Positions 35,183 to 54,241 of a stretch of 54,241 nt of DNA are shown in pieces. The DNA lies in the IMG/VR virus record IMGVR_UViG_3300022074_000054, positions 1-54,241 of that record; one strand, 5' to 3'. The notes under the pieces were generated by a model. The model did not search any database. It saw nothing but the letters and a program-made list of their open reading frames with translations, and was not told where the DNA came from. Every line of letters begins with the position of its first letter. The stretch's first letter is position 1. The DNA comes from a virus (lineage: Duplodnaviria; Caudoviricetes). The position numbers and the translations under genes are program-made.

Positions 35183-35198
35183 CCGTATGGGGGCACAC

Positions 35199-38593: not shown

Positions 38594-38935
38594 ATGAAAA
38601 GAGAAGCATTACTTCACGCGGCAGAGAAACTTATCAACGGCCCGCGGGCCAAAGACTACGGGGACGCTTTGCATAACCATAAGCGGATTGCTGCCGGATG
38701 GAACGTAATCGTGGAGGGCGCTATGACAAGCCATGGCTTTCTAACGCCCGCACACGTCGCCTTGATGATGGACTGGGTTAAGACCAGCAGATTGGTGGAA
38801 AGCATTGACCACGAGGACTCGTGGATAGACAAAGCAGGGTACACGGCTCTGGGAACAGAATTTGTACACGAAACCAAATCATCGGGGAACACTAATGGCA
38901 AAACTACAAATGAGCATGTTCGCACCAAAAAGTGA
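38594..38935 (+). CDS. DUF6378-like phage protein
   Basis: LINGPRAKDYGD and DSWIDKAGY motifs. Confidence 0.75.
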   Translation: MKREALLHAAEKLINGPRAKDYGDALHNHKRIAAGWNVIVEGAMTSHGFLTPAHVALMMDWVKTSRLVESIDHEDSWIDKAGYTALGTEFVHETKSSGNTNGKTTNEHVRTKK

Positions 38936-40790: not shown

Positions 40791-41095
40791 TCCTCTAGCG
40801 GCGGCACAATGACCACGGCCCGCGTGTCAAGGTTCACGTAAGCCATGCGGATGTTAAACATCTTTTGAACGTCGCTGCGAGGGCGGTAAATGCGTGACGG
40901 TTTTGTACGGTTGGGGTTTACACGCCGACCGTCTTTTTTTGCATCAAACAAAAAAATGTCGCCCGAAGGCGACAGTGCGATGAAGTCTGCGGGACTTGGC
41001 TCTCCTATAGGTTTGAACACCCAATACCCCTGTCGAAATAAAAACTCCTCAAGGATCAGTTCACATATTTTTCCGTCGCGGTGTTTCTTGTGCAT
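40646..41095 (-). CDS. PD-(D/E)XK nuclease, Holliday-junction-resolvase-like
   Basis: GKICE...GYWVF...PADFIA...FLFDAK pattern; C-terminal extension overlaps the polA 3' end in antisense. Confidence 0.6.
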   Translation of the reverse strand: MHKKHRDGKICELILEEFLFRQGYWVFKPIGEPSPADFIALSPSGDIFLFDAKKDGRRVNPNRTKPSRIYRPRSDVQKMFNIRMAYVNLDTRAVVIVPPLEDHLASPQDGPISTSHLDGTSSGTAVSIILATLFASSTFFTDMAISSWI

Positions 41096-41206
41096 CCCAG
41101 ATCACAAACACTTTTCGGTTGCCCCACCACAATGTTGACAGGTTTTGGTTCAAAACCACGACACAATAGTTAATTTTTTATAAAATTATTCTTACACGGG
41201 TTTTTC

Positions 41207-41241
41207 TTGCATTGTTGTATATCTTCTTATATTATCCTAGA
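41207..41241 (+). promoter_or_regulatory. sigma70 promoter for the RHH gene
   Basis: TTGCAT-N17-TATTAT; degenerate operator-like boxes at 41224 and 41234. Confidence 0.6.
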
Positions 41242-41271
41242 TATATATTCGGGGGCACGAGGAAAAAATTA

Positions 41272-41463
41272 ATGGATACAACACGCTGGAAAAGCATTCT
41301 CGTCCCGCGAGAGGTGTACGAAGACATAAAAGAGCTTTCAAAAAAGGAAGGTCGAACCATTGGCGGGCAGCTACGGCTGGTTTTCGAATGGTACATGGAG
41401 ACTTCAAATGACAGAGGCGCAAGGGACAACGGGTCAGTTCCACAAAAATCTGATAAGAAATAA
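41272..41463 (+). CDS. Ribbon-helix-helix (Arc/CopG-like) DNA-binding protein
   Basis: WKSILVPREVYEDIKELSKKEGRTIGGQLRLVF: beta strand, helix, GRT turn, helix. Confidence 0.7.
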   Translation: MDTTRWKSILVPREVYEDIKELSKKEGRTIGGQLRLVFEWYMETSNDRGARDNGSVPQKSDKK

Positions 41464-41608
41464 ATGCCCGAAGTGTGAACAGACGCTCGAAGTTACAGGC
41501 AAAACCAACACCCAACTTTTTCGTAGGTGCAAGAACTGTCACCTGTCTATTGTCGATCCGCTCGACGGTGGCGAATACCCCGAAGATATTTGTGAAATAT
41601 GCGATTAA
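41408..41608 (+). CDS. Small zinc-finger protein
   Basis: GGAG RBS; CPKC, CKNC, CEIC motifs. Confidence 0.65.
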   Translation: MTEAQGTTGQFHKNLIRNKCPKCEQTLEVTGKTNTQLFRRCKNCHLSIVDPLDGGEYPEDICEICD

Positions 41609-41611
41609 GTG

Positions 41612-41641
41612 TTGCTTATCCCATACCATGCGGTCTATACT
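41612..41641 (+). promoter_or_regulatory. sigma70 promoter of the candidate sRNA
   Basis: TTGCTT-N18-TATACT; operator-like boxes at 41598-41605 and 41618-41625. Confidence 0.7.
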
Positions 41642-41647
41642 ACGCTT

Positions 41648-41717
41648 GAACATGGTAAGCATGTTCTCCGTAGTTGATGGCCCCAGTTCGGTTGCCCCCG
41701 GCTGGGGCCATTTTTTT
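41648..41717 (+). ncRNA. Candidate trans-acting antisense sRNA (~70 nt) targeting early-gene RBSs
   Basis: Intergenic; 5' hairpin GAACATG/CATGTTC, exposed TCCGTAGTTG, 10-bp stem ATGGCCCCAG/CTGGGGCCAT plus T7; complementary to six RBS regions. Confidence 0.75.
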
Positions 41718-41731
41718 AGTGAGGAAAAACT

Positions 41732-41947
41732 ATGGCTGATAAAATTTTCGTAAACGGGCTGCGCGTACAAAAACCACGCGACAATGCTCCCGACTTCGTT
41801 AAGGCAAACGTAAGCATAAATCGTGCCGAACTCATCCCGTGGCTCGAATCACAGACCGGTGAGTGGGTCAATGCGCAAGTGCTGGATAGCAAAAACAAAC
41901 CCGGCACGTGGTACGTCGAAGTTGATACGTGGGAAAAGGACAAGTAG
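41732..41947 (+). CDS. Small hypothetical protein (possible ssDNA-binding)
   Basis: GAGG RBS; KPRDNAPDFVKA and WYVEVDTW motifs. Confidence 0.7.
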   Translation: MADKIFVNGLRVQKPRDNAPDFVKANVSINRAELIPWLESQTGEWVNAQVLDSKNKPGTWYVEVDTWEKDK

Positions 41948-41949
41948 CC

Positions 41950-42120
41950 ATGGATGATCTAAACCTACGCGTGTCCGAAATCCCTTGGGTCTACGCCGTC
42001 AACCAAATCAACAAAGCCGTCACCGACTTCCAAGACCAACTGGAAAAAAGCGGTTCAGAAGAAGACCTTAAACGCAGCGCAGAAATTGAAAAGTGCTGGC
42101 AACGTATCATGCAAGGTTGA
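41950..42120 (+). CDS. Small hypothetical protein
   Basis: ATG 41950 directly after the previous stop; helical 56 aa. Confidence 0.6.
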   Translation: MDDLNLRVSEIPWVYAVNQINKAVTDFQDQLEKSGSEEDLKRSAEIEKCWQRIMQG

Positions 42121-42146
42121 CTTTTACCTATAAAATCCCATACACT
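42117..42146 (+). promoter_or_regulatory. sigma70 promoter with operator-like box
   Basis: TTGACT-N18-TACACT; ATCCCATA at 42135-42142. Confidence 0.7.
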
Positions 42147-42175
42147 ACTCCTTGTAACCCTACACGGAGAACGTT

Positions 42176-42520
42176 ATGAAAGACCTCATTACTATCGAAG
42201 AAGTGTGCCAAGTGGCACGAGTCAGCAAGCCAACCATCTACCGGAAGGTAAAGCTTGGCGAGTTTCCTGCCCCAGTCAAAGTACCAACAACCGCGACCCG
42301 CGGGCCAAAGATGGTCAACCGATGGGAAAAAGGCGCAGTCATAAACCATTGCATTCAAAACGTGCAGAAGGCAGCAACCGCCGCAGTCAATATCCCACCA
42401 GAAGACGTAGACGCCCACTGGCACACGGAACCCGAACCATGGTACGTGGAACACAAGTTTGTTCTCCAAGCCATGATTGGCGGGATGTTTGCAGCACTGG
42501 CCGTCTGGTTCTTTAAATGA
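42176..42520 (+). CDS. AlpA/excisionase-like HTH protein with C-terminal hydrophobic helix
   Basis: LITIEEVCQVARVSKPTIYRKVKLGEFPAPVK; C-terminal FVLQAMIGGMFAALAVWFF. Confidence 0.8.
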   Translation: MKDLITIEEVCQVARVSKPTIYRKVKLGEFPAPVKVPTTATRGPKMVNRWEKGAVINHCIQNVQKAATAAVNIPPEDVDAHWHTEPEPWYVEHKFVLQAMIGGMFAALAVWFFK

Positions 42521-42810
42521 CCGTAGACCTGAAAAAGAAATGGTGGGCATGGCACAAAGAAAACCCAGAGTTCTACGAGCTATTCAAAAAGTTCACCTTT
42601 CAAGCCATTCAGAAAGGACACCGTAACCTCTCCGCATGGCTCATCGTCAATCGCATCCGGTGGGAAACAATGATCGTTACCACCGGCGATGAATACAAAA
42701 TCTCCAACGACTACATCGCACTCTACGCTCGGCTGTTCATGCACGAGTTCCCAGACTACAAAGGGTTCTTCCGAACCAAACCCATGAAGCGCGTCCACAT
42801 CGACGAATAA
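42517..42810 (+). CDS. Conserved phage hypothetical protein
   Basis: ENPEFYELF, RIRWE, YKISNDYIALYARLF motifs. Confidence 0.75.
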   Translation: MTVDLKKKWWAWHKENPEFYELFKKFTFQAIQKGHRNLSAWLIVNRIRWETMIVTTGDEYKISNDYIALYARLFMHEFPDYKGFFRTKPMKRVHIDE

Positions 42811-42827
42811 CTTTTTAAAAAATTAGC

Positions 42828-42856
42828 TTGACACGTATGCGATAATATGCTAAAGT
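42828..42856 (+). promoter_or_regulatory. Strong sigma70 promoter with operator-like box
   Basis: TTGACA-N17-TAAAGT with extended TG; TATGCGAT at 42836-42843. Confidence 0.78.
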
Positions 42857-42944
42857 GCCTATATCAATCGGTTAACCCGGTCGATAGGGGGAGGGCAATT
42901 TCCCCCACGCTCTTTGACAATTTAATCAACTACGGAGAACTACG

Positions 42945-43214
42945 ATGAAGAAATTCACGTTCGAACCTTCCTATGACGCTAAAACGTTTGACAAGGAAAA
43001 CCCCAAAGAAATCGAACATCACTTCTACGGAAGCAACGCCTTTGAATGGTACACCGATGTCGATTTTCAAAAGGTCTACAACTGGTTCGCAAAGCAAGGA
43101 CACACGTTCAACATCCACTTCGTGCCCGTCCACGCTAAAGCCGACTACCAAATCGTCAACTACGTGCCACATAACGTGGACGCTCATTGGTTAGGTCAGT
43201 ACCACCCTAAGTGA
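42945..43214 (+). CDS. Early hypothetical protein
   Basis: 89 aa; own promoter, CAACTACGGAGAAC RBS and terminator. Confidence 0.78.
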   Translation: MKKFTFEPSYDAKTFDKENPKEIEHHFYGSNAFEWYTDVDFQKVYNWFAKQGHTFNIHFVPVHAKADYQIVNYVPHNVDAHWLGQYHPK

Positions 43215-43220
43215 AACACG

Positions 43221-43249
43221 GCCCCCGGTCTTCGGATCGGGGGTTTTTT
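43221..43249 (+). terminator. Intrinsic terminator with UUCG tetraloop
   Basis: GCCCCCGGTC-TTCG-GATCGGGGGT followed by a T tract. Confidence 0.88.
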
Positions 43250-43395
43250 ATGCGAGGAAGGTGACCCGCCCCCGACGTTTGATGCAGGGGTCATAACTCC
43301 CCCACTAGGAGTGAGCAAGGGCGGGCCGGGGGCCAGTATACAAGAAACACACGGGGCAGGTCGCGGGCCACGGGTCAAAGAAAGGAACGCTTCTA

Positions 43396-43626
43396 CATAT
43401 ATAGAAGCAAAATATAAAAATAAATTTTTTCGGTAAAATAGCCGTAACCGGTGTAACCGTGTAACCAGAGCAAGTAAAGCGTTGTTATATATAGAGATTT
43501 TTAGTTACATAAGTGAAAAACAAAAAAGTAACCGTACCTGAGTTTATGTAACCAGAAGGAGCAGGATTGCGTATAAGGGGGCTAAATGATTTTTTTATTT
43601 TTTTTTAATTTCTTGCCTATATATAC
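43396..43626. repeat. AT-rich non-coding region with GTAACC repeats (origin or pac candidate)
   Basis: GTAACC at 43444, 43453, 43461, 43528, 43548; inverted GTTAC at 43504; A/T tracts on both flanks. Confidence 0.6.
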
Positions 43627-43676
43627 CAAAGGGGTTTAAGTTATGGCAAACTATCGCCAAATAACTGGAGAATTAA

Positions 43677-44300
43677 ATGCCTAGTAAATCTGTTGCTCCG
43701 CCCCAGAAGAAAAGGGTGGGAAGACCGAAAGCAACTAAAGCGCAGCCGCTCACTCGAAGACAAGAACTGTTCGTGAAAGAACTGGTATCGAAGGACGGGC
43801 AGATCACTATGCGGGAGGCAGCCGTCAATGCTGGATACCCTGTTGGATCGGCGCACACTAGGGCGTATGAATTAACCAACCCAAACATAAGCCCGCATGT
43901 TGTAGCGGCAATACAAGCTTACCGTGCAGAACTGGATGAAAAGTTTGGGGTCAACTACCAACGCCATTTACGAGACCTACAAACCATTCGTGATATGGCA
44001 TTGAACAACGGTGCGTACAGCGCAGCCGTTCAAGCAGAGTACCGACGAGGGCAAGCGCAAGGTGACATCTATGTAAGTAAGAGTGAAATCCGGACAGGCA
44101 GCATCGACAGCATGAGCAAAGATGAAGTCTTGCGGGCACTCAAGGAGATTAAACAAAGCTATGCCCCGATCACTATCGACGTTACTCCCGAAGGAGAGAG
44201 CAATTCCCAAAACCGCGACAAAGCGCGAGGCCGACTTTTGGAGGCAGATGAAGACGGGGATGGAGAAGACTGGGAGGAACTTGAAGGCAACACGGCTTGA
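43677..44300 (+). CDS. terS: Terminase small subunit
   Basis: LTRRQELFVKE...EAAVNAGY...AYEL...PHVVAAI pattern of the Terminase_2 HTH. Confidence 0.78.
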   Translation: MPSKSVAPPQKKRVGRPKATKAQPLTRRQELFVKELVSKDGQITMREAAVNAGYPVGSAHTRAYELTNPNISPHVVAAIQAYRAELDEKFGVNYQRHLRDLQTIRDMALNNGAYSAAVQAEYRRGQAQGDIYVSKSEIRTGSIDSMSKDEVLRALKEIKQSYAPITIDVTPEGESNSQNRDKARGRLLEADEDGDGEDWEELEGNTA

Positions 44301-44640
44301 AACGTGGGCGATGCCCGGTGTGCCGGATGTCGTATTGTGTGATGAGCGTGGTTACTTTCATTTTGTAGAACTCAAGGCAACCGCAGGGAACGCGGTAGAC
44401 CTGAGACCCCATCAAGTGGCGTGGCTTTCCAACCATGGGCACGGCAGCGTTTGGGTGCTGGTTAAAAAACTCAAAACAAAAAACCAACCTGAACAGCTAT
44501 ATTTGTATCGCGGAGCGGACGCGGTGGATTTGAAGATGGAAGGGTTGAAGGTTAATCCGCATTACCACATCACCAGCAAGATAGATTGGAACGAAGTTTT
44601 TTCCTTGATCTGTCCCACAACATCGCATACAATCCCATAG
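44161..44640 (+). CDS. VRR-NUC / Holliday-junction-resolvase-like nuclease
   Basis: EADFW, PGVPDV, FVELKA, LRPHQVAW PD-(D/E)XK pattern; start uncertain, overlaps the terS 3' end. Confidence 0.75.
   Translation: MPRSLSTLLPKERAIPKTATKREADFWRQMKTGMEKTGRNLKATRLETWAMPGVPDVVLCDERGYFHFVELKATAGNAVDLRPHQVAWLSNHGHGSVWVLVKKLKTKNQPEQLYLYRGADAVDLKMEGLKVNPHYHITSKIDWNEVFSLICPTTSHTIP
44605..44639 (+). promoter_or_regulatory. sigma70 promoter with three phased operator-like boxes
   Basis: TTGATC-N17-TACAAT; GTCCCACA 44612, ATCGCATA 44622, ATCCCATA 44632. Confidence 0.72.
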
Positions 44641-44665
44641 TCAATAGAAAACTACGGAGGTTAAA

Positions 44666-44908
44666 GTGACAGTAATTGAAAAAGATCGGTTCGATGCGAG
44701 CCTGTATGACCAACGCCATGGCGGTCCGTTTGATCGCGGGGGTGCTGACTATTATTACGGGCGGAAATTTGAGCCGCACTACTACACTGGCGCGACGTAC
44801 AGCAGCGACAAAGTAGAAATGAAAGAGATGAGCGCGGAAGAAATCGCCGCGTACACTCGCGGGTATAACGCTGCCGAAGAAGATGGCACACAAAAAGACT
44901 GGGGGTAA
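44666..44908 (+). CDS. Early hypothetical protein
   Basis: GTG start after AACTACGGAGG; HGGPFDRGGADYYYGR and AYTRGY motifs. Confidence 0.78.
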   Translation: MTVIEKDRFDASLYDQRHGGPFDRGGADYYYGRKFEPHYYTGATYSSDKVEMKEMSAEEIAAYTRGYNAAEEDGTQKDWG

Positions 44909-44912
44909 AGCA

Positions 44913-45002
44913 GTGGGTTTTATTGAATGGATTTATAAACTTTTATTTGGGGAAGATGCTGCCGACGATCTAAGGCCAAAGCCAAATCGGAAGCGCCGAT
45001 AA
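44913..45002 (+). CDS. 29-aa peptide (not in ORF track)
   Basis: GGGGG RBS, GTG start; MGFIEWIYKLLFGEDAADDLRPKPNRKRR; fills the gap before the terminator. Confidence 0.5.
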   Translation: MGFIEWIYKLLFGEDAADDLRPKPNRKRR

Positions 45003-45016
45003 AAAAGAAAAAAATT

Positions 45017-45041
45017 AGCCCGGTTGACGCTGGGCTTTTTT
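45017..45041 (+). terminator. Intrinsic terminator overlapping the next promoter
   Basis: AGCCCGG-loop-CTGGGCT plus T tract; TTGACG lies in the loop. Confidence 0.75.
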
Positions 45042-45070
45042 ATGTCGTATAGTATGCGATATATCTTATA
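45024..45070 (+). promoter_or_regulatory. sigma70 promoter with inverted operator-like pair
   Basis: TTGACG-N18-TATAGT; TATGCGAT-AT-ATCTTATA at 45053-45070. Confidence 0.7.
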
Positions 45071-45088
45071 CAACTACGGGGGCAAACC

Positions 45089-45802
45089 ATGTTGAAAACT
45101 GTTGAATTGAGTAGAGCCGAAAAAACTAAGGGTATCGCAGTAACCTACCGCGCTGGCGACGGGGAAAAATATGCGACATGTCCGGCAGCTTGCAAAATGA
45201 ATTGCAGCGGGAAGGGATCGCGCAAGATTGATCCGGATTATCTGGACGCACTTCTGGACGCTGTTCCGCGTAAAGGTGTTTCTTTTACCTACTCGCATTT
45301 TGATCCGCGCCAATATGGCTGGGACCGAAAGCTGGCGGAAGGTAAAACCGTTATAAATTTCTCGACCGAAAACAAAGCCGCCGCAGCCGCGTCCATTATT
45401 AATGGCGTCCCGTCGGTTACTGTTGTTTCGGATGAAAGCTGGCAGGGTAAGAAAACCCAGCCCGCCGGGTGGGACGTGAAGGTAGTAAGATGCCCCGCCG
45501 AATACCGCGCCGGGTTTAGCTGCCGCGATTGTGGAAACGGTTTGCCATTGTGCGCACGTCTTGATCGCAATTATGTGATCGGATTTACTGCGCACGGTGC
45601 GAGTAAGAAAAAAGCCGCCGATCCAGAAACCCGCGGCGGATGTTATGCCGACGGCGGAAACGTTGCATTGCATTGGCGCGATACATCAAACCAAGCCCAG
45701 CCGGATGAAACCGACGGCGAAAAGCTTTTGCGGTTTGCGAAGTCTTTACCGCCGCGCAGTATTATCCGGCACCATGTCGCGGGCGATATCGGGCTTGAAT
45801 AA
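45089..45802 (+). CDS. Cys-rich GP88/DUF7227-like protein (radical-SAM-related fold suspected)
   Basis: TCPAAC, FTYSH, INFS, RCPA, SCRDC..LC, IGFTAHG, GCYA, RHHVAGD motifs. Confidence 0.65.
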   Translation: MLKTVELSRAEKTKGIAVTYRAGDGEKYATCPAACKMNCSGKGSRKIDPDYLDALLDAVPRKGVSFTYSHFDPRQYGWDRKLAEGKTVINFSTENKAAAAASIINGVPSVTVVSDESWQGKKTQPAGWDVKVVRCPAEYRAGFSCRDCGNGLPLCARLDRNYVIGFTAHGASKKKAADPETRGGCYADGGNVALHWRDTSNQAQPDETDGEKLLRFAKSLPPRSIIRHHVAGDIGLE

Positions 45803-45819
45803 CTTTTCAAAATATTAGC

Positions 45820-45850
45820 TTGCGCTATATATAACTTTATGCGATATTAT
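45820..45850 (+). promoter_or_regulatory. Promoter with operator-like box
   Basis: TTGCGC at 45820; TATGCGAT at 45838-45845 overlaps the -10 region; upstream AT tract nearly duplicates 42805-42830. Confidence 0.6.
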
Positions 45851-45902
45851 GGGGGACGGGAGCAATTCCGCCCCCGTTTTTGTTTTTACGGAGAACAATA
45901 TT

Positions 45903-47093
45903 ATGACTTATCAAACTAACGCCTTCGCGCATGGCATCGGAAACAGCGCAGTAAGTAGCCAATGGTTTAGCCGTCCAGACGATCAAAAGTTTTTATCGTT
46001 GGATAACATGCTGGCCTTTAAAAAGAGCGACGCCCAGCGGATGACAAGCCGCACGGTTGACACTCACAAAATCCAGATTGTTGGCGAGTTCGACGAAGCA
46101 AACCCAAGCCGCGGCGATTTGAGAATTGAATATGCCGACGATAATAACCGGGACCACGTGAACACCCCAACCAATTGGAGTTTTGGCCAATTGTCCCAAC
46201 TATCGGGAGCGCCTGCCGGATACCTTAAAGACTTGCCCGCACCATTGGCGGCGGACTGTATCCAATGGGGTTTGCGTTATAACCGTGGCCGCGAACTGGT
46301 GAAGGTATACGGAAGCCAATCCGACGGCGGCGACCTACGTGCGGCGACGGGTCCAGACTATGGCCGGATTTTTGACTGGGAAATATTAGAGCCGGTTAAG
46401 AACCTAGTGGACGCCAGCGGCGGACGCTGGAAAGTGCCGGGCATGATGACGGGAAGCCGCGACGGTTTAGCCGTTTACGATCCCGACGTGCCAGTAACAA
46501 TGGAAACGACCACGCTATTCGCCAGCGACCGCGACGTTTTCGTTTTCTTAGTTGACGACCGCAACCCTATCGAAGTCGGTAAGCTGCCGAACGGCGAACC
46601 CGATTTAATGTTCCGCGGGTTTTACGCTTGGAACAGTGAAACCGGTAGCAAGACGGCGGGCATTGCCGCGATGTATCTGCGCGGGGTTTGCATGAATCGC
46701 AACCTATGGGGCGTGGAAAACTTCCAAGAAATTAAGATTAGGCACACCAAATTCGCGCCGGATCGTTTCGCGATGGAAGCCCGTCCAGCATTGGAAAGCT
46801 TTGCGCATGGATCAACCGCGACATTTGTCGAAGGTGTTCAAGCTGCCAAAGCTGCCAAGATTGCGCACGATGATGAAAGCCGCTTAGAGTTTTTAAGCAA
46901 GCGGGCCGGATTATCTGGACGCATGGCAAAAGCTGCAAACGCCCGACACTTGAAAGAAGAAGGCCGCCCAGTCGAAACGGTATGGGATGCCGCGCAAGCT
47001 ATCACCGCAATAGCGCGAGACATTCCCCACCAAGACGCCCGCATTGAAGTCGAGCGAAAAGCCGGTGCGCTGCTGGATAAGGTGGCCGCGTAA
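45903..47093 (+). CDS. DUF932-family protein
   Basis: Start re-assigned to ATG 45903 after TACGGAGAAC; WSFGQL, ASDRDVFVFL, WNSETGS, LRGVCMNRNLWG motifs. Confidence 0.8.
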   Translation: MTYQTNAFAHGIGNSAVSSQWFSRPDDQKFLSLDNMLAFKKSDAQRMTSRTVDTHKIQIVGEFDEANPSRGDLRIEYADDNNRDHVNTPTNWSFGQLSQLSGAPAGYLKDLPAPLAADCIQWGLRYNRGRELVKVYGSQSDGGDLRAATGPDYGRIFDWEILEPVKNLVDASGGRWKVPGMMTGSRDGLAVYDPDVPVTMETTTLFASDRDVFVFLVDDRNPIEVGKLPNGEPDLMFRGFYAWNSETGSKTAGIAAMYLRGVCMNRNLWGVENFQEIKIRHTKFAPDRFAMEARPALESFAHGSTATFVEGVQAAKAAKIAHDDESRLEFLSKRAGLSGRMAKAANARHLKEEGRPVETVWDAAQAITAIARDIPHQDARIEVERKAGALLDKVAA

Positions 47094-47272
47094 TGGTGTT
47101 TTTAAATAAAAACCAGCGGGCCGCATTGGTCCGAGTTTGGAAACGCGGCGGCCACGGGGGAATGACATATCGGCAATTTCGCGCCACTGTCCAACCCGGA
47201 CCCGGCTGCGTGTTGGTGCGTTGGTCCGGCATGTGGTTAGGTATTGAACCCGACGGATACACGCACTCATAA
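47093..47272 (+). CDS. 59-aa early phage protein (not in ORF track)
   Basis: TAATG coupling; TYRQFR...WSGMWLGIEPDGYTHS. Confidence 0.75.
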   Translation: MVFLNKNQRAALVRVWKRGGHGGMTYRQFRATVQPGPGCVLVRWSGMWLGIEPDGYTHS

Positions 47273-47292
47273 CCGGCCCCGACTGCCAACCC

Positions 47293-47319
47293 AAAGCCCG
47301 CCATTGTGCGGGCTTTTTT
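47293..47319 (+). terminator. Intrinsic terminator
   Basis: AAAGCCCGC-loop-GCGGGCTTTTTT. Confidence 0.88.
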
Positions 47320-47327
47320 ATTGGGGA

Positions 47328-47357
47328 TTTACTTTTTCAAAAGTTATCGCATATAAT
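47328..47357 (+). promoter_or_regulatory. sigma70 promoter with operator-like box
   Basis: TTTACT-N18-TATAAT; ATCGCATA at 47346-47353. Confidence 0.7.
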
Positions 47358-47404
47358 CACATACGCGGGGGCAATAAAGCCGCCGCAACTACGGAGTAAA
47401 TAAA

Positions 47405-47821
47405 ATGGAAAATGTACACACTTTAAATATACGCCCGTCCGATATCTTATTGGATCGGGTTTTTAATCCAGCGCAAGATGCGGACATTGGCGGGGCAACG
47501 CCAAAGCAATTGGCGGAAGCTTGCGGGATCATTCCCGACTTCTTTTGCCAAGCTTGTATCGAAGCGGGTGACGCCCTAACGTTGGACGCCATCGCGGCTG
47601 GTATGGATAACGCCTACCAGTTCGGCGGTTTCTGTTATCCCTTCGGCGGTACTATTGACGATCACAACGGGACGTACCAAAGCGAACATGACGACGATCC
47701 AGCATTGCCACCGCTGGCGCGTTTCATCTTCGAAGGTTTCGAGTGTTTCGTTTATGAATACGGCATCGCCGCAATTCGTGACCGTGCAACCCGTGAAACT
47801 AAGATCGCGAGGTTTGATTGA
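47405..47821 (+). CDS. Early hypothetical protein
   Basis: 138 aa after CAACTACGGAG RBS; DPALPPL, VYEYGI, ARFD motifs. Confidence 0.78.
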   Translation: MENVHTLNIRPSDILLDRVFNPAQDADIGGATPKQLAEACGIIPDFFCQACIEAGDALTLDAIAAGMDNAYQFGGFCYPFGGTIDDHNGTYQSEHDDDPALPPLARFIFEGFECFVYEYGIAAIRDRATRETKIARFD

Positions 47822-47982
47822 TGGAAGCCGAAAAGAAAACCGAAACCACGCCCGCCCAGTCGCTGCTTTTCCAATTGCAGTTTATGGGCATGATGATGAT
47901 GAGCGGACGCCAAGACGAAGCCGACGCGGCTTATGTTAAGGCGCAGAAACTCGCCCAGCAATTGGTGGACGCTGGCCACTAA
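47821..47982 (+). CDS. 53-aa peptide (not in ORF track)
   Basis: GAGG RBS, TGATG coupling; MEAEKKTETTPAQSLLFQLQFMGMMMMSGRQDEADAAYVKAQKLAQQLVDAGH. Confidence 0.65.
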   Translation: MEAEKKTETTPAQSLLFQLQFMGMMMMSGRQDEADAAYVKAQKLAQQLVDAGH

Positions 47983-48003: not shown

Positions 48004-48028
48004 AAGCCCGCCCCGTGCGGGCTTTTTT
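48004..48028 (+). terminator. Intrinsic terminator (near copy of 47293-47319)
   Basis: AAGCCCGC-loop-GCGGGCTTTTTT. Confidence 0.88.
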
Positions 48029-48427
48029 ATTGCCTAGTGTTTCGCAGTTAAACAAGGCGGGCCCCGCCCCGCGCACCCTTCCCCAAACCTACGGGCCGCG
48101 ATCCCGTGGCCGTGGGCCGTGCCCCGTTGGCCGTTGGCGGCGGGCTCCGGTCCCCGATCCCTGACCCCAGCCGGTGAAAATTAAACCGCGGACGGCGCAC
48201 CGTGGCCGGTGCCAGTTATCCGGTGCCGGTTGCCTTCCATCCGCTGGCCGCTGGCCGTGATCCATCCGCCGGGATAATCGCGCAGGGTCCCCCGGCTATC
48301 GGGTCAAATGCCATGGAGCGAGAGCCAAAAACCGCGATCCGGGGCGCATGGCCCCGCGTTTACGGAGCGGAGGCTTGGGCCATGTTTCTCGCAAATATTT
48401 ATGCGTTATTTTGAATCAGAATTAACT

Positions 48428-48459
48428 GTCTTATATTTGTGCTTAAAATCGCATATAAT
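48428..48459 (+). promoter_or_regulatory. Putative terminase-operon promoter with operator-like boxes
   Basis: TATAAT at 48454-48459 overlapped by ATCGCATA (48448-48455); GTCTTATA at 48428; -35 is weak. Confidence 0.55.
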
Positions 48460-48467
48460 GCGTGGTA

Positions 48468-48483
48468 TGTTCCACGTGGAACA
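48468..48483. promoter_or_regulatory. parS: parS-like palindrome 1
   Basis: TGTTCCACGTGGAACA, a perfect 16-bp palindrome matching the bacterial chromosomal parS consensus. Confidence 0.85.
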
Positions 48484-48491
48484 TCGCAAAT

Positions 48492-48507
48492 TGTTTCACG
48501 TGAAACA
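48492..48507. promoter_or_regulatory. parS: parS palindrome 2
   Basis: TGTTTCACGTGAAACA, identical to the canonical Bacillus/Caulobacter-type parS. Confidence 0.9.
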
Positions 48508-48544
48508 TTGAAAACTGCGTATGAAAAATTAGCTAGGGACCCCT

Positions 48545-50008
48545 ATGAGTGCAGCGCAAAATACCTTGATCGAAGAGAAAAAACTGAAGCTTGAGCTTCG
48601 GCTTGCGCAGCTTGAAAAGAACGAGAAGTGCCGTGATGATTTTTTAACTTTCGTAAAAACAGTTTGGCCGGACTTCATCGCGGGTCGTCATCATAAAATC
48701 ATTGCAGAGAAGCTTGAAAGGGTGGCTAAGGGCGAATTGAAGCGTCTTATCATTAACATGGCACCTCGTCACACGAAGTCTGAGTTCGCATCCTTTTTGT
48801 TCCCGGCGTGGTTCATGGGCCGCGATCCGAAAAAGAAGATCATTCAGGCGACGCACACGACTGAGTTAGCGGTTAACTTTGGCCGTAAGACGAAGAATTT
48901 GATTGAGGCGGACGAGTTCAAGGAGATTTTTCCGGAGGTAAAGCTTGCGGCTGACAGTAAGGCGTCGGGTCGTTGGGACACGAACAAGGGTGGTATGTAC
49001 TACGCGGTTGGTGTGGGTTCTAACTTGGCGGGACGTGGTGGTGATTTGGTGATTATTGATGACCCGCATTCGGAGCAGACGGCGATGTCGAGTTCCGGGT
49101 TTGATGATGCGTGGGATTGGTACACGGGTGGTCCACGTCAGCGTTTGCAGCCGGGCGGCAGTATTGTTTTGGTTCAGACTAGGTGGTCTGAGAAGGACAT
49201 GACGGGTCAGTTATTACGTGCGATGGCCAAGGACCCGTTGGCGGATCAATGGGAAGTTGTGGAGTTGCCTGCTATTTTTGAGGATGGGACTCCGTGCTGG
49301 CCAGAATTTTGGAGTTTGGAAGATTTGACCGCGGTTAAGGCGTCGATTCCTCCGTCCAAGTGGAACGCTCAGTATCAGCAAAATCCTACGGGTGAAGAGA
49401 ATGCGATCATTCGTCGTGAGTGGTGGCGTGTTTGGGAGCCTGCGAAGATACCGCAGCTTGAGTATGTGATTCAGAGTTACGATACGGCGTTTAGTAAAAG
49501 GGAGACGGCGGATTATTCTGCGATTACGACGTGGGGTGTATTTTATCCGAACGAGGGTGGTTCGGGTCCCAACCTGATCCTATTGGACAGTAAAAAGGGA
49601 CGTTGGGATTTTCCTGAGTTAAAACAAGTTGCGCTTGAGAGTTACCAATTTTGGGAGCCTGATACGGTAATAGTGGAGGCCAAGGCTAGTGGTATGCCGT
49701 TGACCCACGAGCTACGGAACATGGGCATCCCGGTTGTAAACTTTACACCGAGTCGTGGTAACGATAAGGTGAGTCGAGTACACAGTGTGTCGCCATTGTT
49801 TGAAGCAGGGATGGTTTGGGCCCCCGATGAGACTTTTTCAGATGAATTAATTGAAGAGGTCGCGGCTTTTCCTAATGGAGAGCACGATGATTTGGTTGAT
49901 AGTATGACGCAGGCGCTTATGCGCTATAGACAAGGAAACTTTGTCCAGCTACCAACTGATGACTGGGAAGATGAAGAAAACCATGTTAAAGTGAAAATGT
50001 ATTATTAA
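48545..50008 (+). CDS. terL: Terminase large subunit
   Basis: MAPRHTKS Walker A, VIIDDP Walker B, VQTRW, YQQNP, SYDTA, HDDLVDS nuclease motifs. Confidence 0.95.
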   Translation: MSAAQNTLIEEKKLKLELRLAQLEKNEKCRDDFLTFVKTVWPDFIAGRHHKIIAEKLERVAKGELKRLIINMAPRHTKSEFASFLFPAWFMGRDPKKKIIQATHTTELAVNFGRKTKNLIEADEFKEIFPEVKLAADSKASGRWDTNKGGMYYAVGVGSNLAGRGGDLVIIDDPHSEQTAMSSSGFDDAWDWYTGGPRQRLQPGGSIVLVQTRWSEKDMTGQLLRAMAKDPLADQWEVVELPAIFEDGTPCWPEFWSLEDLTAVKASIPPSKWNAQYQQNPTGEENAIIRREWWRVWEPAKIPQLEYVIQSYDTAFSKRETADYSAITTWGVFYPNEGGSGPNLILLDSKKGRWDFPELKQVALESYQFWEPDTVIVEAKASGMPLTHELRNMGIPVVNFTPSRGNDKVSRVHSVSPLFEAGMVWAPDETFSDELIEEVAAFPNGEHDDLVDSMTQALMRYRQGNFVQLPTDDWEDEENHVKVKMYY

Positions 50009-50776: not shown

Positions 50777-53212
50777 ATGGCAAATGGTAAACCAAATGCA
50801 GGACTGATGGATGTACCATCGCAACTAGACGTGGACGATTTAACGGCTGAAGTAGAGCTTGAGTTGCCGGATAGTTCCAACGTTGTGATGGCTGACATCG
50901 AAGCAACTGACGTTGGTTCCATTGAGATCAGCCCAGAAGACGACGGCGGTGTCGTTATAGATTTTGACCCACAGGATCAGCGTGGCGTCAGCGACGATTT
51001 TTACATGAACTTGGCTGAAGAGATACCGGACAGGGAACTGGCCCGTATTTCAAGCGACTTGTTATCTGAGTTTGATGCGAACAAGGCTAGTCGGCAAGAG
51101 TGGGAAGATGCTTACACTAACGGTCTGGAGCTTTTGGGCTTTACTTATGATGAGCGCACCCAGCCTTTTCGTGGAGCCTCCGGAGTAACTCATCCGTTGC
51201 TTGCTGAAGCTGCTACGCAGTTCCAAGCACAAGCTTTTAACGAATTGTTACCTGCTTCGGGGCCCGTGCGCACCGTAGTAATGGGTAAGGACACTGTTTC
51301 CAAGACGCAGCAGGCGTCGCGTGTACAGCAGTTTATGAATTACTACATCACAAATGTGATGGAAGAATACACGCCGGACATGGATCAGATGTTGTTTTAC
51401 CTCCCACTGGCGGGTTCTACGTTTAAAAAGACGTATTATGATGAAACGCTGGGTCGTGCGGTATCTAAGTTTGTGCCTGCGGAGAACTTGGTTGTTCCGT
51501 ATGAGACCTCGGACCTCGAAACATGTCCTAATATTACGCAGGTTGTGCGCATGTCGCTCAACGATTTGCGTAAGCGCCAGATAAACGGCACGTATTTAGA
51601 CGTTGAGGTGTTGCCTGCCCAGAAAGAAATGTCTGATTTGGACGGTGAGTTAGATCGAATTGAGGGCATGGAGCCGAATCAGATTGATTATGACTGCACC
51701 ATTTTGGAATGCCACGTCGATTTGGATTTGGAAGGATACGAAGATTTAGACGACGACGGTGAACCTACGGGTATCAAGATTCCTTACGTTGTTACCATTT
51801 CCGAGGACAACGGTCAGGTGTTGTCGATCCGACGCAACTATCGTGAAGAAGACGAGTTGCGTAAAAAGATACAATACTTCACGCACTTTAAGTTTTTACC
51901 CGGATTCGGGTTTTATGGTTTAGGTTTGATTCACACCATTGGCGGTTTGTCACGAACTGCCACGGCGGCGCTGCGACAGTTGATCGACGCTGGTACGTTG
52001 TCCAACCTCCCTGCGGGTTTCAAAGCCCGCGGACTACGGATCAGGGATGACGATGACCCGTTGCAGCCCGGTGAGTTCCGAGATGTGGACGCACCCGGTG
52101 GGGCTATACGTGACAGCCTGATGCCGCTGCCATTTAAGGGTCCCGACCAAACCTTGTTTAATTTGCTTGGTTTTGTTGTGCAGGCCGGACAGCGTTTTGC
52201 AACGATCACGGACCTTAAAGTAGGCGACGGTAATCAGCAGGCTGCTGTTGGCACAACTATTGCTATGATGGAGCAGGGCACTCGTGTGATGAGTGCTGTT
52301 CACAAGCGGTTGCATTATGCGATGCGGCAGGAGTTTAGGATTCTGGCGCGTGTTATGTCCGAGAGTTTGCCGCAACGGTATCCGTATGCGGTTCCGGGTG
52401 GTGACGAGCGTGTCATGCAAAGCGACTTTGATGATCGTGTAGATGTCGTACCTGTAAGTAATCCTAATATTTTCAGCCAAGCGCAGCGTATTGTATTGGC
52501 GCAAACCAAGTTACAATTGGCTACGCAGGCACCGGAGCTTCACAACCTAGCTGAAGTTTTCCGAGACATGTACGAAGCGTTGGGCGTGACTGACATTGAC
52601 CGAATTATGAAGTCGGTCCCACAAGAAGAGCCCATGCCTATTGATCCGGCGCAAGAGAACATCAATGCGTTGGACATGTTGCAGCTACATGCTTTTGAGG
52701 GTCAGAACCATCAGGCGCATATTACAGCGCACTTGGTATTTGGTTCGTCGCCCATGGTTGGTGGTATGCCACCGGTTGCCATGTCGTTGCAGAAGCACGT
52801 TATGGAACACGTACAGATTGCGGCGAAAGAACAAGCGGCAGTTGCATATTTGCAACAGATGCAGCAAAAAGGTGGCCAGCCCGCAACAGACGATGAGATG
52901 CTAGAGATTGAGAAGTTGACGGCACAGTTTGTAGCGGAAGGGTTACAGCAAGTTAAAGAACTATCTGGTCAGTTGTCGGGAGCGGGCGCTCCTGATCCGT
53001 TGGTACAGCTTAAAGAGCAAGAGCTACAGATTAGGGCTCAAGCCGATCAGGCCGACCAAGCGATTGACCAAGCCAAGGTACAGCTTGACGCACAGAACCA
53101 GCAGACACGTGCAAGTCAGTTTGACCGCAGGTTGAGTTCGCAAGAAAGTCAAACACAGGCTCGTATTGATGCTGCGTTGCAGCGTGAGCTATTAAAGAAC
53201 CGAGGAGGTTAG
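50777..53212 (+). CDS. Portal protein (P22-like)
   Basis: 811 aa after terL; HPLLAEAATQFQA, LPLAGSTFKK, GFGFYGLG, RQLIDAGTL motifs; Gln-rich C-terminal helical barrel. Confidence 0.88.
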   Translation: MANGKPNAGLMDVPSQLDVDDLTAEVELELPDSSNVVMADIEATDVGSIEISPEDDGGVVIDFDPQDQRGVSDDFYMNLAEEIPDRELARISSDLLSEFDANKASRQEWEDAYTNGLELLGFTYDERTQPFRGASGVTHPLLAEAATQFQAQAFNELLPASGPVRTVVMGKDTVSKTQQASRVQQFMNYYITNVMEEYTPDMDQMLFYLPLAGSTFKKTYYDETLGRAVSKFVPAENLVVPYETSDLETCPNITQVVRMSLNDLRKRQINGTYLDVEVLPAQKEMSDLDGELDRIEGMEPNQIDYDCTILECHVDLDLEGYEDLDDDGEPTGIKIPYVVTISEDNGQVLSIRRNYREEDELRKKIQYFTHFKFLPGFGFYGLGLIHTIGGLSRTATAALRQLIDAGTLSNLPAGFKARGLRIRDDDDPLQPGEFRDVDAPGGAIRDSLMPLPFKGPDQTLFNLLGFVVQAGQRFATITDLKVGDGNQQAAVGTTIAMMEQGTRVMSAVHKRLHYAMRQEFRILARVMSESLPQRYPYAVPGGDERVMQSDFDDRVDVVPVSNPNIFSQAQRIVLAQTKLQLATQAPELHNLAEVFRDMYEALGVTDIDRIMKSVPQEEPMPIDPAQENINALDMLQLHAFEGQNHQAHITAHLVFGSSPMVGGMPPVAMSLQKHVMEHVQIAAKEQAAVAYLQQMQQKGGQPATDDEMLEIEKLTAQFVAEGLQQVKELSGQLSGAGAPDPLVQLKEQELQIRAQADQADQAIDQAKVQLDAQNQQTRASQFDRRLSSQESQTQARIDAALQRELLKNRGG

Positions 53213-53433: not shown

Positions 53434-53637
53434 ATGCCGTTAAAGAAGGGTAGTAGCAACAAAACGAAGAGCCAGAACATCAAGAAATTGATGGACGAGG
53501 GCTATGAGCAAAATCAAGCAGTTGCTATTGCTTTGTCTAAGGCTGGGGAAACGCCTGCCAAGCGTATGGCACGTGGCGGAATGGTTAAGGGGTTTAGCCC
53601 CATTGCACGGCCACAACGTTTTCAAGGAGTTTTCTGA
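53434..53637 (+). CDS. Small basic hypothetical protein
   Basis: MPLKKGSS and [11 protein letters not shown] motifs. Confidence 0.75.
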
Positions 53638-54241
53638 TGGTCGATTTTAGCAGGTTTACAATGGGCAGCCGACTTCCGGCGTTACCTGAGATAATTATAC
53701 CGCCGATAAACCCGGCGATTATTAAGCCTGCACCTGCTGTAAAAGCACCGGTAAAACAAGCGCCCATTCCGGTGCCGACTCCTGTGCCGACTCCCTTGCC
53801 GACTCCTTTGCCAACACCTGTAAACCCGCCGAAGCGTATGCCCGGTGAATCTGGCCCGATTATTGCGGAACCGAACGTGCCCCCCTTACCGATGCCTGCG
53901 CCCGCGCCAGTTCCAGTACCGCAGCCAATGCCTGCTCCCGCGCCAGCACCTGCTCCGGTTCCAGCACCTGCTCCGGTTCCTGTGCCGCCGATGCCTACGC
54001 CCGTGCCGTCGCCAACAACGATACCGGAATTAATTCTACCACCAACGCCTGTGCCGGTTAGAGAACCAGAGCGTGTAGTTTTTGAAGAGCCTCTTCCTAC
54101 ACCACCACCAGTTGCGGTAGCGCCACCTCCTCCGCCCATTCCGCAAGTAGCTCCTGCACCAACACCTGTAGCACCGCCGCCTGCTCCTGTAGCACCGCCG
54201 CCTGCTCCCGCACCGGCAGTGCCCCCTGTTATCCCACACAT
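53637..54241 (+). CDS. 5' part of the Pro-rich protein spanning the junction
   Basis: AAGGAG RBS, TGATG coupling; [23 protein letters not shown]...; no stop before the window end. Confidence 0.85.
   Translation, partial: MVDFSRFTMGSRLPALPEIIIPPINPAIIKPAPAVKAPVKQAPIPVPTPVPTPLPTPLPTPVNPPKRMPGESGPIIAEPNVPPLPMPAPAPVPVPQPMPAPAPAPAPVPAPAPVPVPPMPTPVPSPTTIPELILPPTPVPVREPERVVFEEPLPTPPPVAVAPPPPPIPQVAPAPTPVAPPPAPVAPPPAPAPAVPPVIPH
54113..54238. repeat. Terminal direct repeat (copy 2)
   Basis: Identical to bases 1-126. Confidence 0.95.

What the first reader, a model, noticed from the sequence alone, without database searches (positions are those of the whole stretch)
48468..48507. Tandem host-type parS sites at the start of the terminase operon, with no phage ParA/ParB
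Seen: two perfect 16-bp palindromes, TGTTCCACGTGGAACA and TGTTTCACGTGAAACA, 8 bp apart and 8 bp downstream of a TATAAT, ahead of terL. No ParA- or ParB-like ORF was recognised. Established: this is the chromosomal parS consensus bound by ParB (Bacillus, Caulobacter), which spreads in a CTP-dependent way, loads SMC and can silence nearby promoters. Inference: the phage borrows the host ParABS/SMC system to segregate or position an episomal genome, to titrate ParB and stall host segregation, or to gate packaging-gene transcription on ParB occupancy.
Basis: partly seen in the sequence, partly recalled or inferred. Interest (0 to 1): 0.88.

Follow-up and report, generated by a model that had tools for sequence, protein, structure and literature searches.

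The report
Host-type parS sites on a lytic phage
A marine phage that has no partition genes of its own keeps two perfect copies of the bacterial chromosome "centromere" sequence in front of its DNA-packaging and virion genes, probably to recruit the host protein ParB, as Bacillus phage phi29 is known to do.

Summary
Two perfect 16-bp palindromes of the chromosomal parS consensus lie at 48468-48483 and 48492-48507. They follow a conserved promoter-like element and precede terL by 37 bp. The 54-kb virus record is 97% complete by CheckV's estimate. Six-frame searches found no ParB, ParA-type ATPase or integrase.

The sites are not chance and not an assembly artefact. In 80 TerL relatives (506 kb), 49 of 53 perfect sites lie within 300 bp upstream of terL. 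Five larger relatives each carry exactly one site, at that locus. Two independent seawater runs hold the segment without a difference.

Presence is patchy: 36 of 73 relatives with enough upstream sequence carry a site, and the TerL tree needs at least 9 gains or losses. Copy number and position relative to the promoter also vary. No phage gene co-varies with the site, so the binder is most likely host ParB.

What ParB does there is untested. My leading guess is control of the late promoter together with inheritance of a silent genome. A precedent exists: virulent phage phi29 carries host-type parS sites bound by host Spo0J. This is therefore a new variant of a known kind. Orphan parS also turned up in phi29-like 11-kb viruses, a 42-kb virus and cultured Pseudomonas phages.

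The parts
48004..48024 (+). Intrinsic-terminator-like hairpin followed by a T run. It ends the upstream replication/early gene block.
   Evidence: 8 pairs, 6 of them G-C, then TTTTATT. The last upstream ORF ends at 47982.
48040..48380 (.). G+C-rich non-coding stretch made of short degenerate repeats (CCGTGGCCGTGGGCCGTG and similar). Function unknown. It is part of the 520-bp gap in which the parS sites sit.
   Evidence: Repeat families D1-D3 and D5. Folding as RNA is no better than shuffles (z 0.2). No Rfam family reached its threshold. A similar repeat lies upstream of terL in phage DSL-LC04.
48377..48401 (+). Conserved box GGGCCATGTTTCTCGCAAATATTTA. It is present in relatives with and without parS. 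Function unknown.
   Evidence: Unique in the window. A loose form of the box was found in 62 of 70 relatives with at least 220 bp upstream. It is visible in the sequences.
48422..48449 (+). Promoter-like element TTAACT-16 nt-TAAAAT, the putative late promoter. Relatives carry the same boxes, followed by CGCATA.
   Evidence: 9 of 12 matches to the sigma-70 consensus. Conservation is seen. No transcription start was measured.
48454..48459 (+). It lies 8 bp before parS-1 and is specific to the window's subclade.
48468..48483 (.). parS-1, TGTTCCACGTGGAACA, a perfect 16-bp palindrome.
   Evidence: The same 16-mer is listed as the chromosomal parS of Pseudomonas putida in Table 1 of PMC7022226.
48484..48491 (.). 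The 8-bp spacer TCGCAAAT. In relatives it varies in sequence and length (7-8 bp).
48492..48507 (.). parS-2, TGTTTCACGTGAAACA, a perfect 16-bp palindrome.
   Evidence: The same 16-mer is listed as the chromosomal parS of Hyphomonas neptunium in Table 1 of PMC7022226.
48535..48543 (+). Conserved AGGGACCCC just before the terL start codon, probably the ribosome-binding region.
   Evidence: Present in nearly all relatives shown.
48545..50008 (+). terL (large terminase), the first gene of the virion and packaging gene block.
   Evidence: phrog_38 E 4e-112. Terminase_6C. 63% amino-acid identity to Pelagibacter phage HTVC027P TerL.
50777..53212 (+). Portal protein, downstream in the same gene block.
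   Evidence: phrog_1216 E 2e-56.

Best explanation
These are genuine, selected, host-type parS sites on a virulent-looking podovirus of the HTVC023P-like group that encodes no ParB. During infection the host's chromosomal ParB would nucleate on them and load onto phage DNA at the head of the roughly 38-kb virion and packaging gene block.

The most likely consequence acts in cis. A ParB complex sits on or next to the late promoter and ties late-gene expression to ParB occupancy. The same complex lets the host ParABS machinery carry a non-expressing phage genome into daughter cells. That would be a phi29-like persistence mode without any phage partition gene.

Shown here: the sequence identity to parS, its positional conservation, its patchy accessory distribution, the absence of a phage ParB or ParA, and the absence of a co-varying phage gene.

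Inferred: ParB binding itself and everything that follows from it.
For: 1. Both 16-mers match the chromosomal parS consensus at all 14 specified positions. Both are listed as chromosomal parS of named bacteria (PMC7022226 Table 1).

2. The site is tied to one locus. In 80 TerL relatives (506,160 bp), 49 of 53 perfect sites lie within 300 bp upstream of terL. Three more lie at -1058, where a gene sits between the site and terL. The last is my own mis-called start in L037.

3. Of ten larger records, five have exactly one site at up to 1 mismatch in 47-58 kb, always this one, and five have none.

4. Footprint. In the 10 distinct two-site upstream sequences, the 14 specified positions of both sites never vary. 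The only changes inside the sites are at positions 5 and 12, the N positions of the consensus, and these switch together in 3 of 10 sequences. The spacer changes in both sequence and length.

5. No ParB_N or HTH_ParB in the window. No ParB_N in five relatives. No ParA-type ATPase or integrase in the window.

6. None of 60 window ORFs is present in all five parS-bearing records and absent from all four parS-less ones.

7. Accessory behaviour. There are 0, 1 or 2 copies, a decayed copy in L012, at least 9 gains or losses on the TerL tree (5 forced by well-supported branches), and two positions relative to the promoter. A spreading protein explains sites on either side of a promoter better than a classical repressor does.

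8. Literature. ParB bound at parS3 and parS4 represses adjacent promoters in Pseudomonas aeruginosa (PMC5521831, abstract). A chromosomal par operon with one parS stabilises unstable plasmids (PMC7022226, passage). Phi29 carries parS sites for host Spo0J, which is involved in carrying its genome into the prespore (PMC2731898, passages).

9. The segment is not chimeric. Ten contigs from ten different IMG metagenome ids share the two-site arrangement. Contigs of two seawater runs from different studies cover 48314-48561 and 48377-48550 with 0 differences.
Against: - No binding or expression data exist. The host is unknown, so it is not shown that the host has ParB with this specificity.
- 37 of 73 close relatives, and the three outgroup phages checked (HTVC027P, 023Pt_psg01, DSL-LC04), do without the site. 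Whatever it does is dispensable.
- The co-variation test had only 5 positive and 4 negative records, and two of the negatives were about half complete. A core phage protein such as the ribbon-helix-helix protein at 41212-41463 or the TerS-like protein at 43677-44300 could still bind the site as an optional target.
- The restriction to one intergenic region could partly reflect shared ancestry and tolerance of insertions there, rather than coupling to the promoter.
- Half-parS heptamers are not enriched in the genome (19 found against 16.1 +/- 3.8 expected).
- The promoter is a consensus match only; no transcription start was measured. The RNA-library contigs gave none.
Confidence: 0.45

Rival explanations
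1. Host ParB binds, but the benefit acts in trans. Replicating phage genomes form a growing sink of parS that draws ParB, and through it MipZ, SMC or ParA, away from the chromosome origin. This stalls host segregation and division during infection. On this view the position next to terL is incidental.
For: All of the evidence for ParB binding listed under the best explanation applies here too. ParB partners that control division and chromosome organisation (MipZ, PopZ, SMC) are described in PMC7022226 (passages). Copy number varies between 1 and 2 and the exact position varies, as expected if only the presence of a site matters.
Against: If only presence mattered, sites should be scattered over the many other intergenic gaps of the genome. 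Instead, none of the perfect sites in 506 kb of relatives lies outside the region upstream of terL. One or two sites per genome make a weak sink until late in replication.
Confidence: 0.2
2. The palindromes are operators for a phage-encoded DNA-binding protein, for example the ribbon-helix-helix protein at 41212-41463 or the HTH_17 protein at 42176-42520. That protein would control the late promoter, and the likeness to parS would be a coincidence.
For: The site sits at an operator-like position next to a promoter. The phage encodes small DNA-binding proteins: RHH_5 at E 3.5e-4, below the Pfam cut-off, and HTH_17 at 27.8 bits, above it.
Against: Identity to the parS consensus at 14 of 14 specified positions, in both natural variants, is very unlikely by coincidence. 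A reversed control palindrome in tandem occurs in 0 viral contigs, against at least 109 for parS. The ribbon-helix-helix gene is present in parS-less relatives as well, and the HTH_17 gene is missing from 4 of 5 parS-bearing relatives. The same 16-mer recurs in unrelated viruses that share no such protein. The site lies downstream of the promoter in some relatives and upstream in others.
Confidence: 0.1
3. The sites act as RNA. One or two hairpins in the terL 5' leader would stabilise the late mRNA or control its translation.
For: In the window's class the sites lie between the putative promoter and the ribosome-binding region. The 106-nt leader folds better than shuffles (-32.2 kcal/mol, z -3.1).
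Against: The good fold follows trivially from two palindromes. In a second class of relatives the site lies upstream of the -35 box, so it is probably not transcribed from this promoter. A hairpin would tolerate compensatory changes anywhere in the stem, yet 14 positions are invariant and equal to parS. One-mismatch variants such as CGTTCCACGTGAAACA in L035 would break a pair.
Confidence: 0.04
4. The sites are part of the packaging signal (pac or cos) recognised by the phage terminase.
For: They lie just upstream of terL, in a 520-bp non-coding region with repeats, where many phages keep their packaging site.
Against: The TerS-like and TerL proteins are core and well conserved (61-86% and 84-87% identity across the nine larger records), yet half of the relatives have no site. 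The packaging signal must therefore lie elsewhere. The conserved boxes and G+C-rich repeats are better candidates.
Confidence: 0.05

Closest known systems
parS sites of Bacillus phage phi29 (and Nf), bound by host Spo0J/ParB
   Same: A virulent phage without its own ParB carries host-type chromosomal parS sites. Host Spo0J is involved in segregating the phage genome into the prespore (PMC2731898, passages; it cites Meijer et al. 2005, which I did not read). A script found 4 perfect TGTTTCACGTGGAACA sites in the phi29 record.
   Different: Phi29 is a 19-kb protein-primed phage of a Gram-positive spore former. It has four to five sites spread over the right half of the genome, and silencing is done by a second host protein, Spo0A. 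The phage here is a 54-kb marine podovirus related to pelagiphages, with 1-2 sites at a single locus next to the late promoter. Its host is unknown and there is no sporulation context.
Chromosomal parS/ParB (Spo0J) centromere
   Same: The 16-bp sequence is identical to the consensus TGTTNCACGTGAAACA and its GGAACA variant (PMC7022226).
   Different: It is not near a chromosomal origin, has no adjacent parAB operon, and lies on a virus. Binding, CTP-dependent spreading and SMC loading are untested here.
Partition cassettes of plasmid prophages (P1 parABS, N15 sopABC)
   Same: A centromere-like site on a phage genome. From memory, the dispersed N15 sopC sites lie near late-gene regions and SopB affects transcription there.
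   Different: Those phages encode their own ParA/ParB or SopA/SopB and use their own centromere sequence. Six-frame searches found no such gene here, and the sequence is the host's.
ParB as a local repressor at parS3/parS4 of Pseudomonas aeruginosa
   Same: parS lies in an intergenic region next to a promoter, and direct ParB-parS interaction represses transcription there (PMC5521831, abstract).
   Different: That is a chromosomal locus regulating host genes. No expression data exist for the phage promoter.

Membership tests
Chromosomal-type parS (ParB/Spo0J binding site) | 16-bp palindrome matching TGTTNCACGTGNAACA | tested here: met
   Two perfect matches. The consensus and both variants appear in PMC7022226 Table 1.
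Chromosomal-type parS (ParB/Spo0J binding site) | Specific binding by a chromosomal ParB, with CTP-dependent loading and spreading | not testable with these tools
   This needs EMSA or ChIP with ParB of the host, which is unknown.
Chromosomal-type parS (ParB/Spo0J binding site) | Located in the origin region of a chromosome, usually near parAB | tested here: not met
   The record is a 54-kb virus genome with no ParB_N, HTH_ParB or CbiA-type ParA.
Phi29-type orphan host parS on a virulent phage | Host-consensus parS on a phage that encodes no ParB | tested here: met
   The same holds for 5 of 5 relatives searched for ParB_N.
Phi29-type orphan host parS on a virulent phage | Virulent gene content (no lysogeny module) | tested here: met
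   No Phage_integrase match. The gene content is replication genes plus virion genes. A repressor cannot be excluded: small RHH and HTH_17 proteins exist.
Phi29-type orphan host parS on a virulent phage | Several sites, placed towards the genome ends | tested here: inconclusive
   There is only one locus with 1-2 sites. The physical ends of the virion DNA are unknown: all records are classed as 'linear' without end repeats.
Phi29-type orphan host parS on a virulent phage | ParB/Spo0J-dependent inheritance of the silent phage genome | not testable with these tools
   This needs an infection system.
Plasmid-prophage partition cassette (P1/N15 type) | Phage-encoded ParA and ParB next to their own centromere | tested here: not met
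   Searches found none in six frames. The flanking ORFs are an unnamed 138-aa protein and TerL.
Operator of a phage-encoded regulator | A cognate phage DNA-binding gene that occurs together with the site | tested here: not met
   No window ORF follows the presence or absence of parS across 9 relatives. The sample is small.
Terminase recognition site (pac/cos) | Present in all members that share the terminase | tested here: not met
   37 of 73 relatives with 84-97% identical TerL have no site.

The most novel reading that the evidence does not exclude
Orphan host-type parS may be a general, overlooked phage strategy rather than a phi29 oddity. Unrelated virulent phages of Gram-negative and marine bacteria would plant one or two copies of the host centromere at a control point of their genome. 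The host ParB-CTP clamp would then act as a switch. While ParB is in excess it silences the late promoter, and ParABS passes the quiet genome on to daughter cells, which would be a molecular basis for pseudolysogeny or the carrier state. Once phage replication outruns the ParB supply, the late genes fire.
Probability: 0.25. Interest if true: 0.85.

Novelty: new variant of a known kind. Interest (0 to 1): 0.66.

Why it matters
If host ParB really loads on these phage genomes, it links two fields that rarely meet: bacterial chromosome segregation (ParB-CTP clamps, SMC loading) and the infection cycle of abundant marine phages.

It would offer a concrete mechanism for how a phage with no lysogeny or partition genes could persist in slowly growing ocean bacteria, or how it times its late genes.

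The comparison set found here makes this testable. Natural relatives carry 0, 1 or 2 sites at two different positions. Cultured Pseudomonas phages carry perfect sites: phiPsa374 inside its terminal repeat, and P. putida phage Amme-3. Their hosts have well-studied ParB proteins.

Six full-text searches found only the phi29/Nf case in print. Subscription journals are largely outside that library.

Tried and rejected
- Host assignment. TerL relatives of 76% identity or more sit in MAGs labelled Verrucomicrobiota (3 MAGs, 4 contigs), Rhodobacteraceae, Halieaceae and Maricaulis. Such bins are easily contaminated by phage contigs, and the labels disagree, so I name no host. Four of five of those MAGs contain perfect parS, but some hits may be the phage contigs themselves.
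- G+C content. parS-bearing loci are slightly richer in G+C (0.51 and 0.49 against 0.47, Mann-Whitney p 7e-4). The rows are related to one another, so I draw nothing from this.
- Transcription start. All four runs laid were assembled contigs. RNA-library contigs cover terL from 48563 in one run and 48048-48406 in another. Neither shows a start, a strand, or that the DNA is transcribed.
- Physical genome ends. None of the 11 records has end repeats, and contig ends differ between records. I could not tell whether the sites lie near a virion DNA end.
- RNA readings. No Rfam family reached its threshold; a Trp-leader hit of 30 bits against a cut-off of 41 merely reflects the terminator. The G+C-rich region folds no better than shuffles.
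- Half-parS heptamers are not enriched.
- My regular expressions for the promoter boxes classified only 21 of 36 parS-bearing loci. The two position classes therefore rest mainly on reading the sequences.
- Short-query BLAST against cultured phages lists partial matches as well. Only phi29, phiPsa374 and Amme-3 were verified for perfect sites.
- Supplementary files of the HTVC023P-type papers, which may list hosts or genomes of this clade, could not be seen.

Full report
WHAT IS THERE

The window is a single IMG/VR virus record of 54,241 bp. CheckV estimates it at 97% complete, and no end repeats were found. At 48468-48483 lies TGTTCCACGTGGAACA and at 48492-48507 lies TGTTTCACGTGAAACA. The two are separated by 8 bp, a TATAAT ends 8 bp before the first, and the terL ATG is at 48545. 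They are the only perfect matches to TGTTNCACGTGNAACA in the window. With up to two mismatches a third match appears at 13682, against 0.35 expected from shuffles. Both 16-mers are listed as chromosomal parS of named bacteria in Table 1 of a review of chromosomal ParB (PMC7022226, passages read).

THE SURROUNDINGS

Nearly all genes are on the + strand.
- The block 33783-47982 holds replication and early genes: Pam3 gp33/gp34-like proteins, an AEP primase, a UvrD-type helicase, a family-A DNA polymerase, a weak ribbon-helix-helix match, an HTH_17 protein, a TerS-like protein, and DUF7227 and DUF932 proteins.
- This block ends with a strong terminator-like hairpin at 48004-48024.
- A 520-bp non-coding gap follows. 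It contains G+C-rich short repeats (48040-48380), a conserved box (48377-48401), and an A+T-rich promoter-like element TTAACT-16-TAAAAT (48422-48449). The two parS sites, a conserved AGGGACCCC and terL come next.
- After terL come the portal, major head protein, tail fibre and large virion proteins, which run round the contig ends to about 32232.
The sites therefore sit at the head of the virion and packaging gene block.

Six-frame searches of the record found no ParB_N, HTH_ParB, CbiA-type ParA or tyrosine integrase. Each model rang in 11-14 of 14 control genomes.

The nearest cultured or published phages by TerL are phage 023Pt_psg01 and Pelagibacter phage HTVC027P (63% amino-acid identity), DSL-LC04 (58%) and HTVC023P (55%). 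This places the phage in the HTVC023P-type podovirus group described in PMC9599517 (passages).

IS IT MORE THAN CHANCE, AND IS IT REAL DNA?

A TerL search of IMG/VR found 599 relatives, of which the best 80 (84-97% identity) were kept.
- These 80 loci (506,160 bp) hold 53 perfect sites. Of those, 49 lie within 300 bp upstream of the terL start. Three lie at -1058 in loci where another gene sits between the site and terL. One was displaced only by my mis-called start in L037. No perfect site lies anywhere else.
- Of the 73 loci with at least 200 bp upstream, 37 have none, 26 have one and 10 have two. Three of the "none" loci carry one-mismatch versions (L029, L035, L038).
- Of ten larger records of the clade, five have exactly one site at up to one mismatch in 47-58 kb, always this one. 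The other five have none, including one record rated 100% complete and one rated 96%.
- The two-site arrangement occurs in ten contigs from ten different metagenome ids.
- Contigs of two seawater runs from different studies cover 48314-48561 and 48377-48550 without a single difference.

The same palindrome read backwards occurs in tandem in none.

EVOLUTIONARY BEHAVIOUR

In the ten distinct two-site sequences, the 14 specified positions of both sites never vary. The only variable positions inside the sites are 5 and 12, exactly the N positions of the ParB consensus. They switch together, so the two variants swap places in 3 of 10 sequences. The spacer changes in sequence and in length.

Relatives without the site keep all the other boxes and simply have a shorter leader. 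L012 carries a decayed first copy.

Reading the sequences shows two positions.
- In the window's class the site starts 7-32 nt after the CGCATA box that follows the -10 element, so it is probably in the transcribed leader.
- In a second class (L043, L061, L069, L071, L073, L076) it ends about 33 nt upstream of the -35 box and is followed by another palindrome, TTGCCTAATAATTAGGCAA.
My regular expressions confirmed only 19 class-one and 2 class-two loci out of 36.

On a TerL tree of 85 rows, presence or absence needs at least 9 changes, 5 of them forced by well-supported branches. Three rows with too little upstream sequence were left uncounted. The deepest ingroup member (L179, 76% identity) has two sites, while the three outgroup phages have none within 2.5 kb of terL. 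The site is thus an accessory that is gained, lost and moved, but always within this one intergenic region.

WHO BINDS IT?

No ParB-like domain is present in the window or in five relatives. I compared 60 window ORFs with nine larger relatives. None is present in all five parS-bearing records and absent from all four parS-less ones. The ribbon-helix-helix and TerS-like genes occur in both groups, and the HTH_17 gene is missing from four of the five parS-bearing relatives. The sample is small and two of the negatives are about half complete.

The same 16-mer also turns up on unrelated viruses. Together with the exact match to a consensus shared by most bacterial phyla, the simplest reading is that the binder is the host's chromosomal ParB. 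I put this at about 0.75. It remains an inference, because the host is unknown. MAG labels for close relatives disagree: Verrucomicrobiota, Rhodobacteraceae, Halieaceae and Maricaulis.

WHAT IT MIGHT DO

Established knowledge:
- ParB nucleates at parS and spreads.
- A single parS with the chromosomal par genes stabilises unstable plasmids (PMC7022226, passage).
- ParB at parS3 and parS4 represses adjacent promoters in Pseudomonas aeruginosa (PMC5521831, abstract).
- ParB recruits MipZ, PopZ and SMC in various bacteria (PMC7022226, passages).

The strict restriction to the late-promoter gap, although the genome has more than ten other intergenic gaps of over 100 bp, argues for an effect in cis. 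Sites on either side of the promoter fit a spreading protein better than a classical repressor. My leading model (0.45) is that ParB occupancy damps the late promoter and lets ParABS carry a silent genome into daughter cells, with late genes released when replication outruns ParB.

A pure ParB-sink model (0.2) explains the variable copy number but not the fixed locus. The other rivals are a phage-encoded binder (0.1), RNA hairpins (0.04) and a packaging signal (0.05). Each meets specific counter-evidence, given under the rival explanations.

COMPARISON WITH WHAT IS KNOWN

The closest precedent is Bacillus phage phi29. [quoted passage not shown] 2005, was not read). A script found four perfect sites in the phi29 record. 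The kind "virulent phage borrowing host ParB through host-type parS" is therefore known.

What is new here:
- the phage type, a 54-kb marine relative of pelagiphages;
- the single locus at the late promoter and terL leader;
- the natural series of relatives with 0, 1 or 2 sites;
- the lack of any sporulation context.

Six full-text searches found no report of host-type parS on lytic phages other than phi29 and Nf. Subscription journals are largely outside that library.

WIDER PATTERN SEEN IN PASSING

- Many of the tandem-parS contigs are viruses of about 11 kb with inverted terminal repeats. One (L091, rated 100% complete) has a phi29-like gene set and a parS pair about 250-310 nt from each end, with no ParB_N.
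- A 42-kb virus with direct terminal repeats has a pair at a convergent gene junction and no ParB_N.
- Among cultured phages, phiPsa374 of Pseudomonas syringae pv. actinidiae has a perfect site inside its annotated 526-bp terminal repeat. P. putida phage Amme-3 has a perfect site as well.
These offer ready laboratory systems.

VERDICT

This is a new variant of a known kind. Interest is 0.66. Even so, the strength of the comparative signal and the apparent breadth of orphan parS among phages make it well worth a bench test.

Noticed in passing
window 48040-48380: A G+C-rich non-coding stretch of short degenerate repeats (CCGTGGCCGTGGGCCGTG and similar) lies between the early-block terminator and the late promoter. 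A similar repeat lies upstream of terL in phage DSL-LC04. RNA-library contigs of one salt-marsh run cover 48048-48406. It could be a packaging site, a replication origin or neither. It shows no RNA structure signal (z 0.2) and no Rfam match.
   Followed up: partly
window 48377-48401: The box GGGCCATGTTTCTCGCAAATATTTA is unique in the window. A loose form of it is present in 62 of 70 relatives, with or without parS. It contains GTTTCTC, one mismatch from a half-parS. Function unknown.
   Followed up: partly
L043, L061, L069, L071, L073 (about 90-110 nt upstream of terL): In these relatives the single parS lies upstream of the -35 box and is followed directly by a second palindrome of the form TTGCCTAATAATTAGGCAA. 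L076 has only a degenerate version of it. This may be a site for another regulator.
   Followed up: no
L091 (IMG/VR record G016, 11,783 bp) and about 40 similar loci: These are viruses of about 11 kb with inverted terminal repeats. L091 has a phi29-like gene set (DNA polymerase, encapsidation ATPase, upper collar connector, major head protein). In L091 a pair of host-type parS sites lies about 250-310 nt from each end, and no ParB_N was found.
   Followed up: partly
L104 11191-11229 (record G017, 42,190 bp, direct terminal repeats): An unrelated virus family of about 42 kb (G+C 0.54) has two TGTTTCACGTGAAACA sites 7 bp apart. They sit at a convergent gene junction, immediately before a terminator-like hairpin. 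No ParB_N was found in the record.
   Followed up: partly
L249 389-404 (Pseudomonas phage phiPsa374); L250 474-489 (P. putida phage Amme-3): Cultured Pseudomonas phages carry perfect host-type parS. In phiPsa374 the site lies inside the annotated 526-bp direct terminal repeat, so it is present at both genome ends.
   Followed up: partly
window 2-1378 and 53637-54239: The ORFs that run off the two contig ends have no PHROG family and no counterpart in any of nine relatives. The assembly seems to break in a hypervariable gene or genes just after the portal region.
   Followed up: no
window 42176-42520 and 41212-41463: Two small DNA-binding candidates lie in the early block. One is an HTH_17/AlpA-like protein found in only one relative. 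The other is a core ribbon-helix-helix-like protein (RHH_5, below the Pfam cut-off).
   Followed up: partly
window 3026-3529: An ORF among the virion genes matches a GroES co-chaperonin family (phrog_3188, E 1e-16).
   Followed up: no
window 48402-48492, as seen in runs X6, X15 and X16: Contigs in three runs replace 48402/3-48490/2 with 16-21 other letters and then continue into the second parS. Relatives with a single site directly after the conserved box therefore co-occur with the two-site form in the same samples.
   Followed up: no
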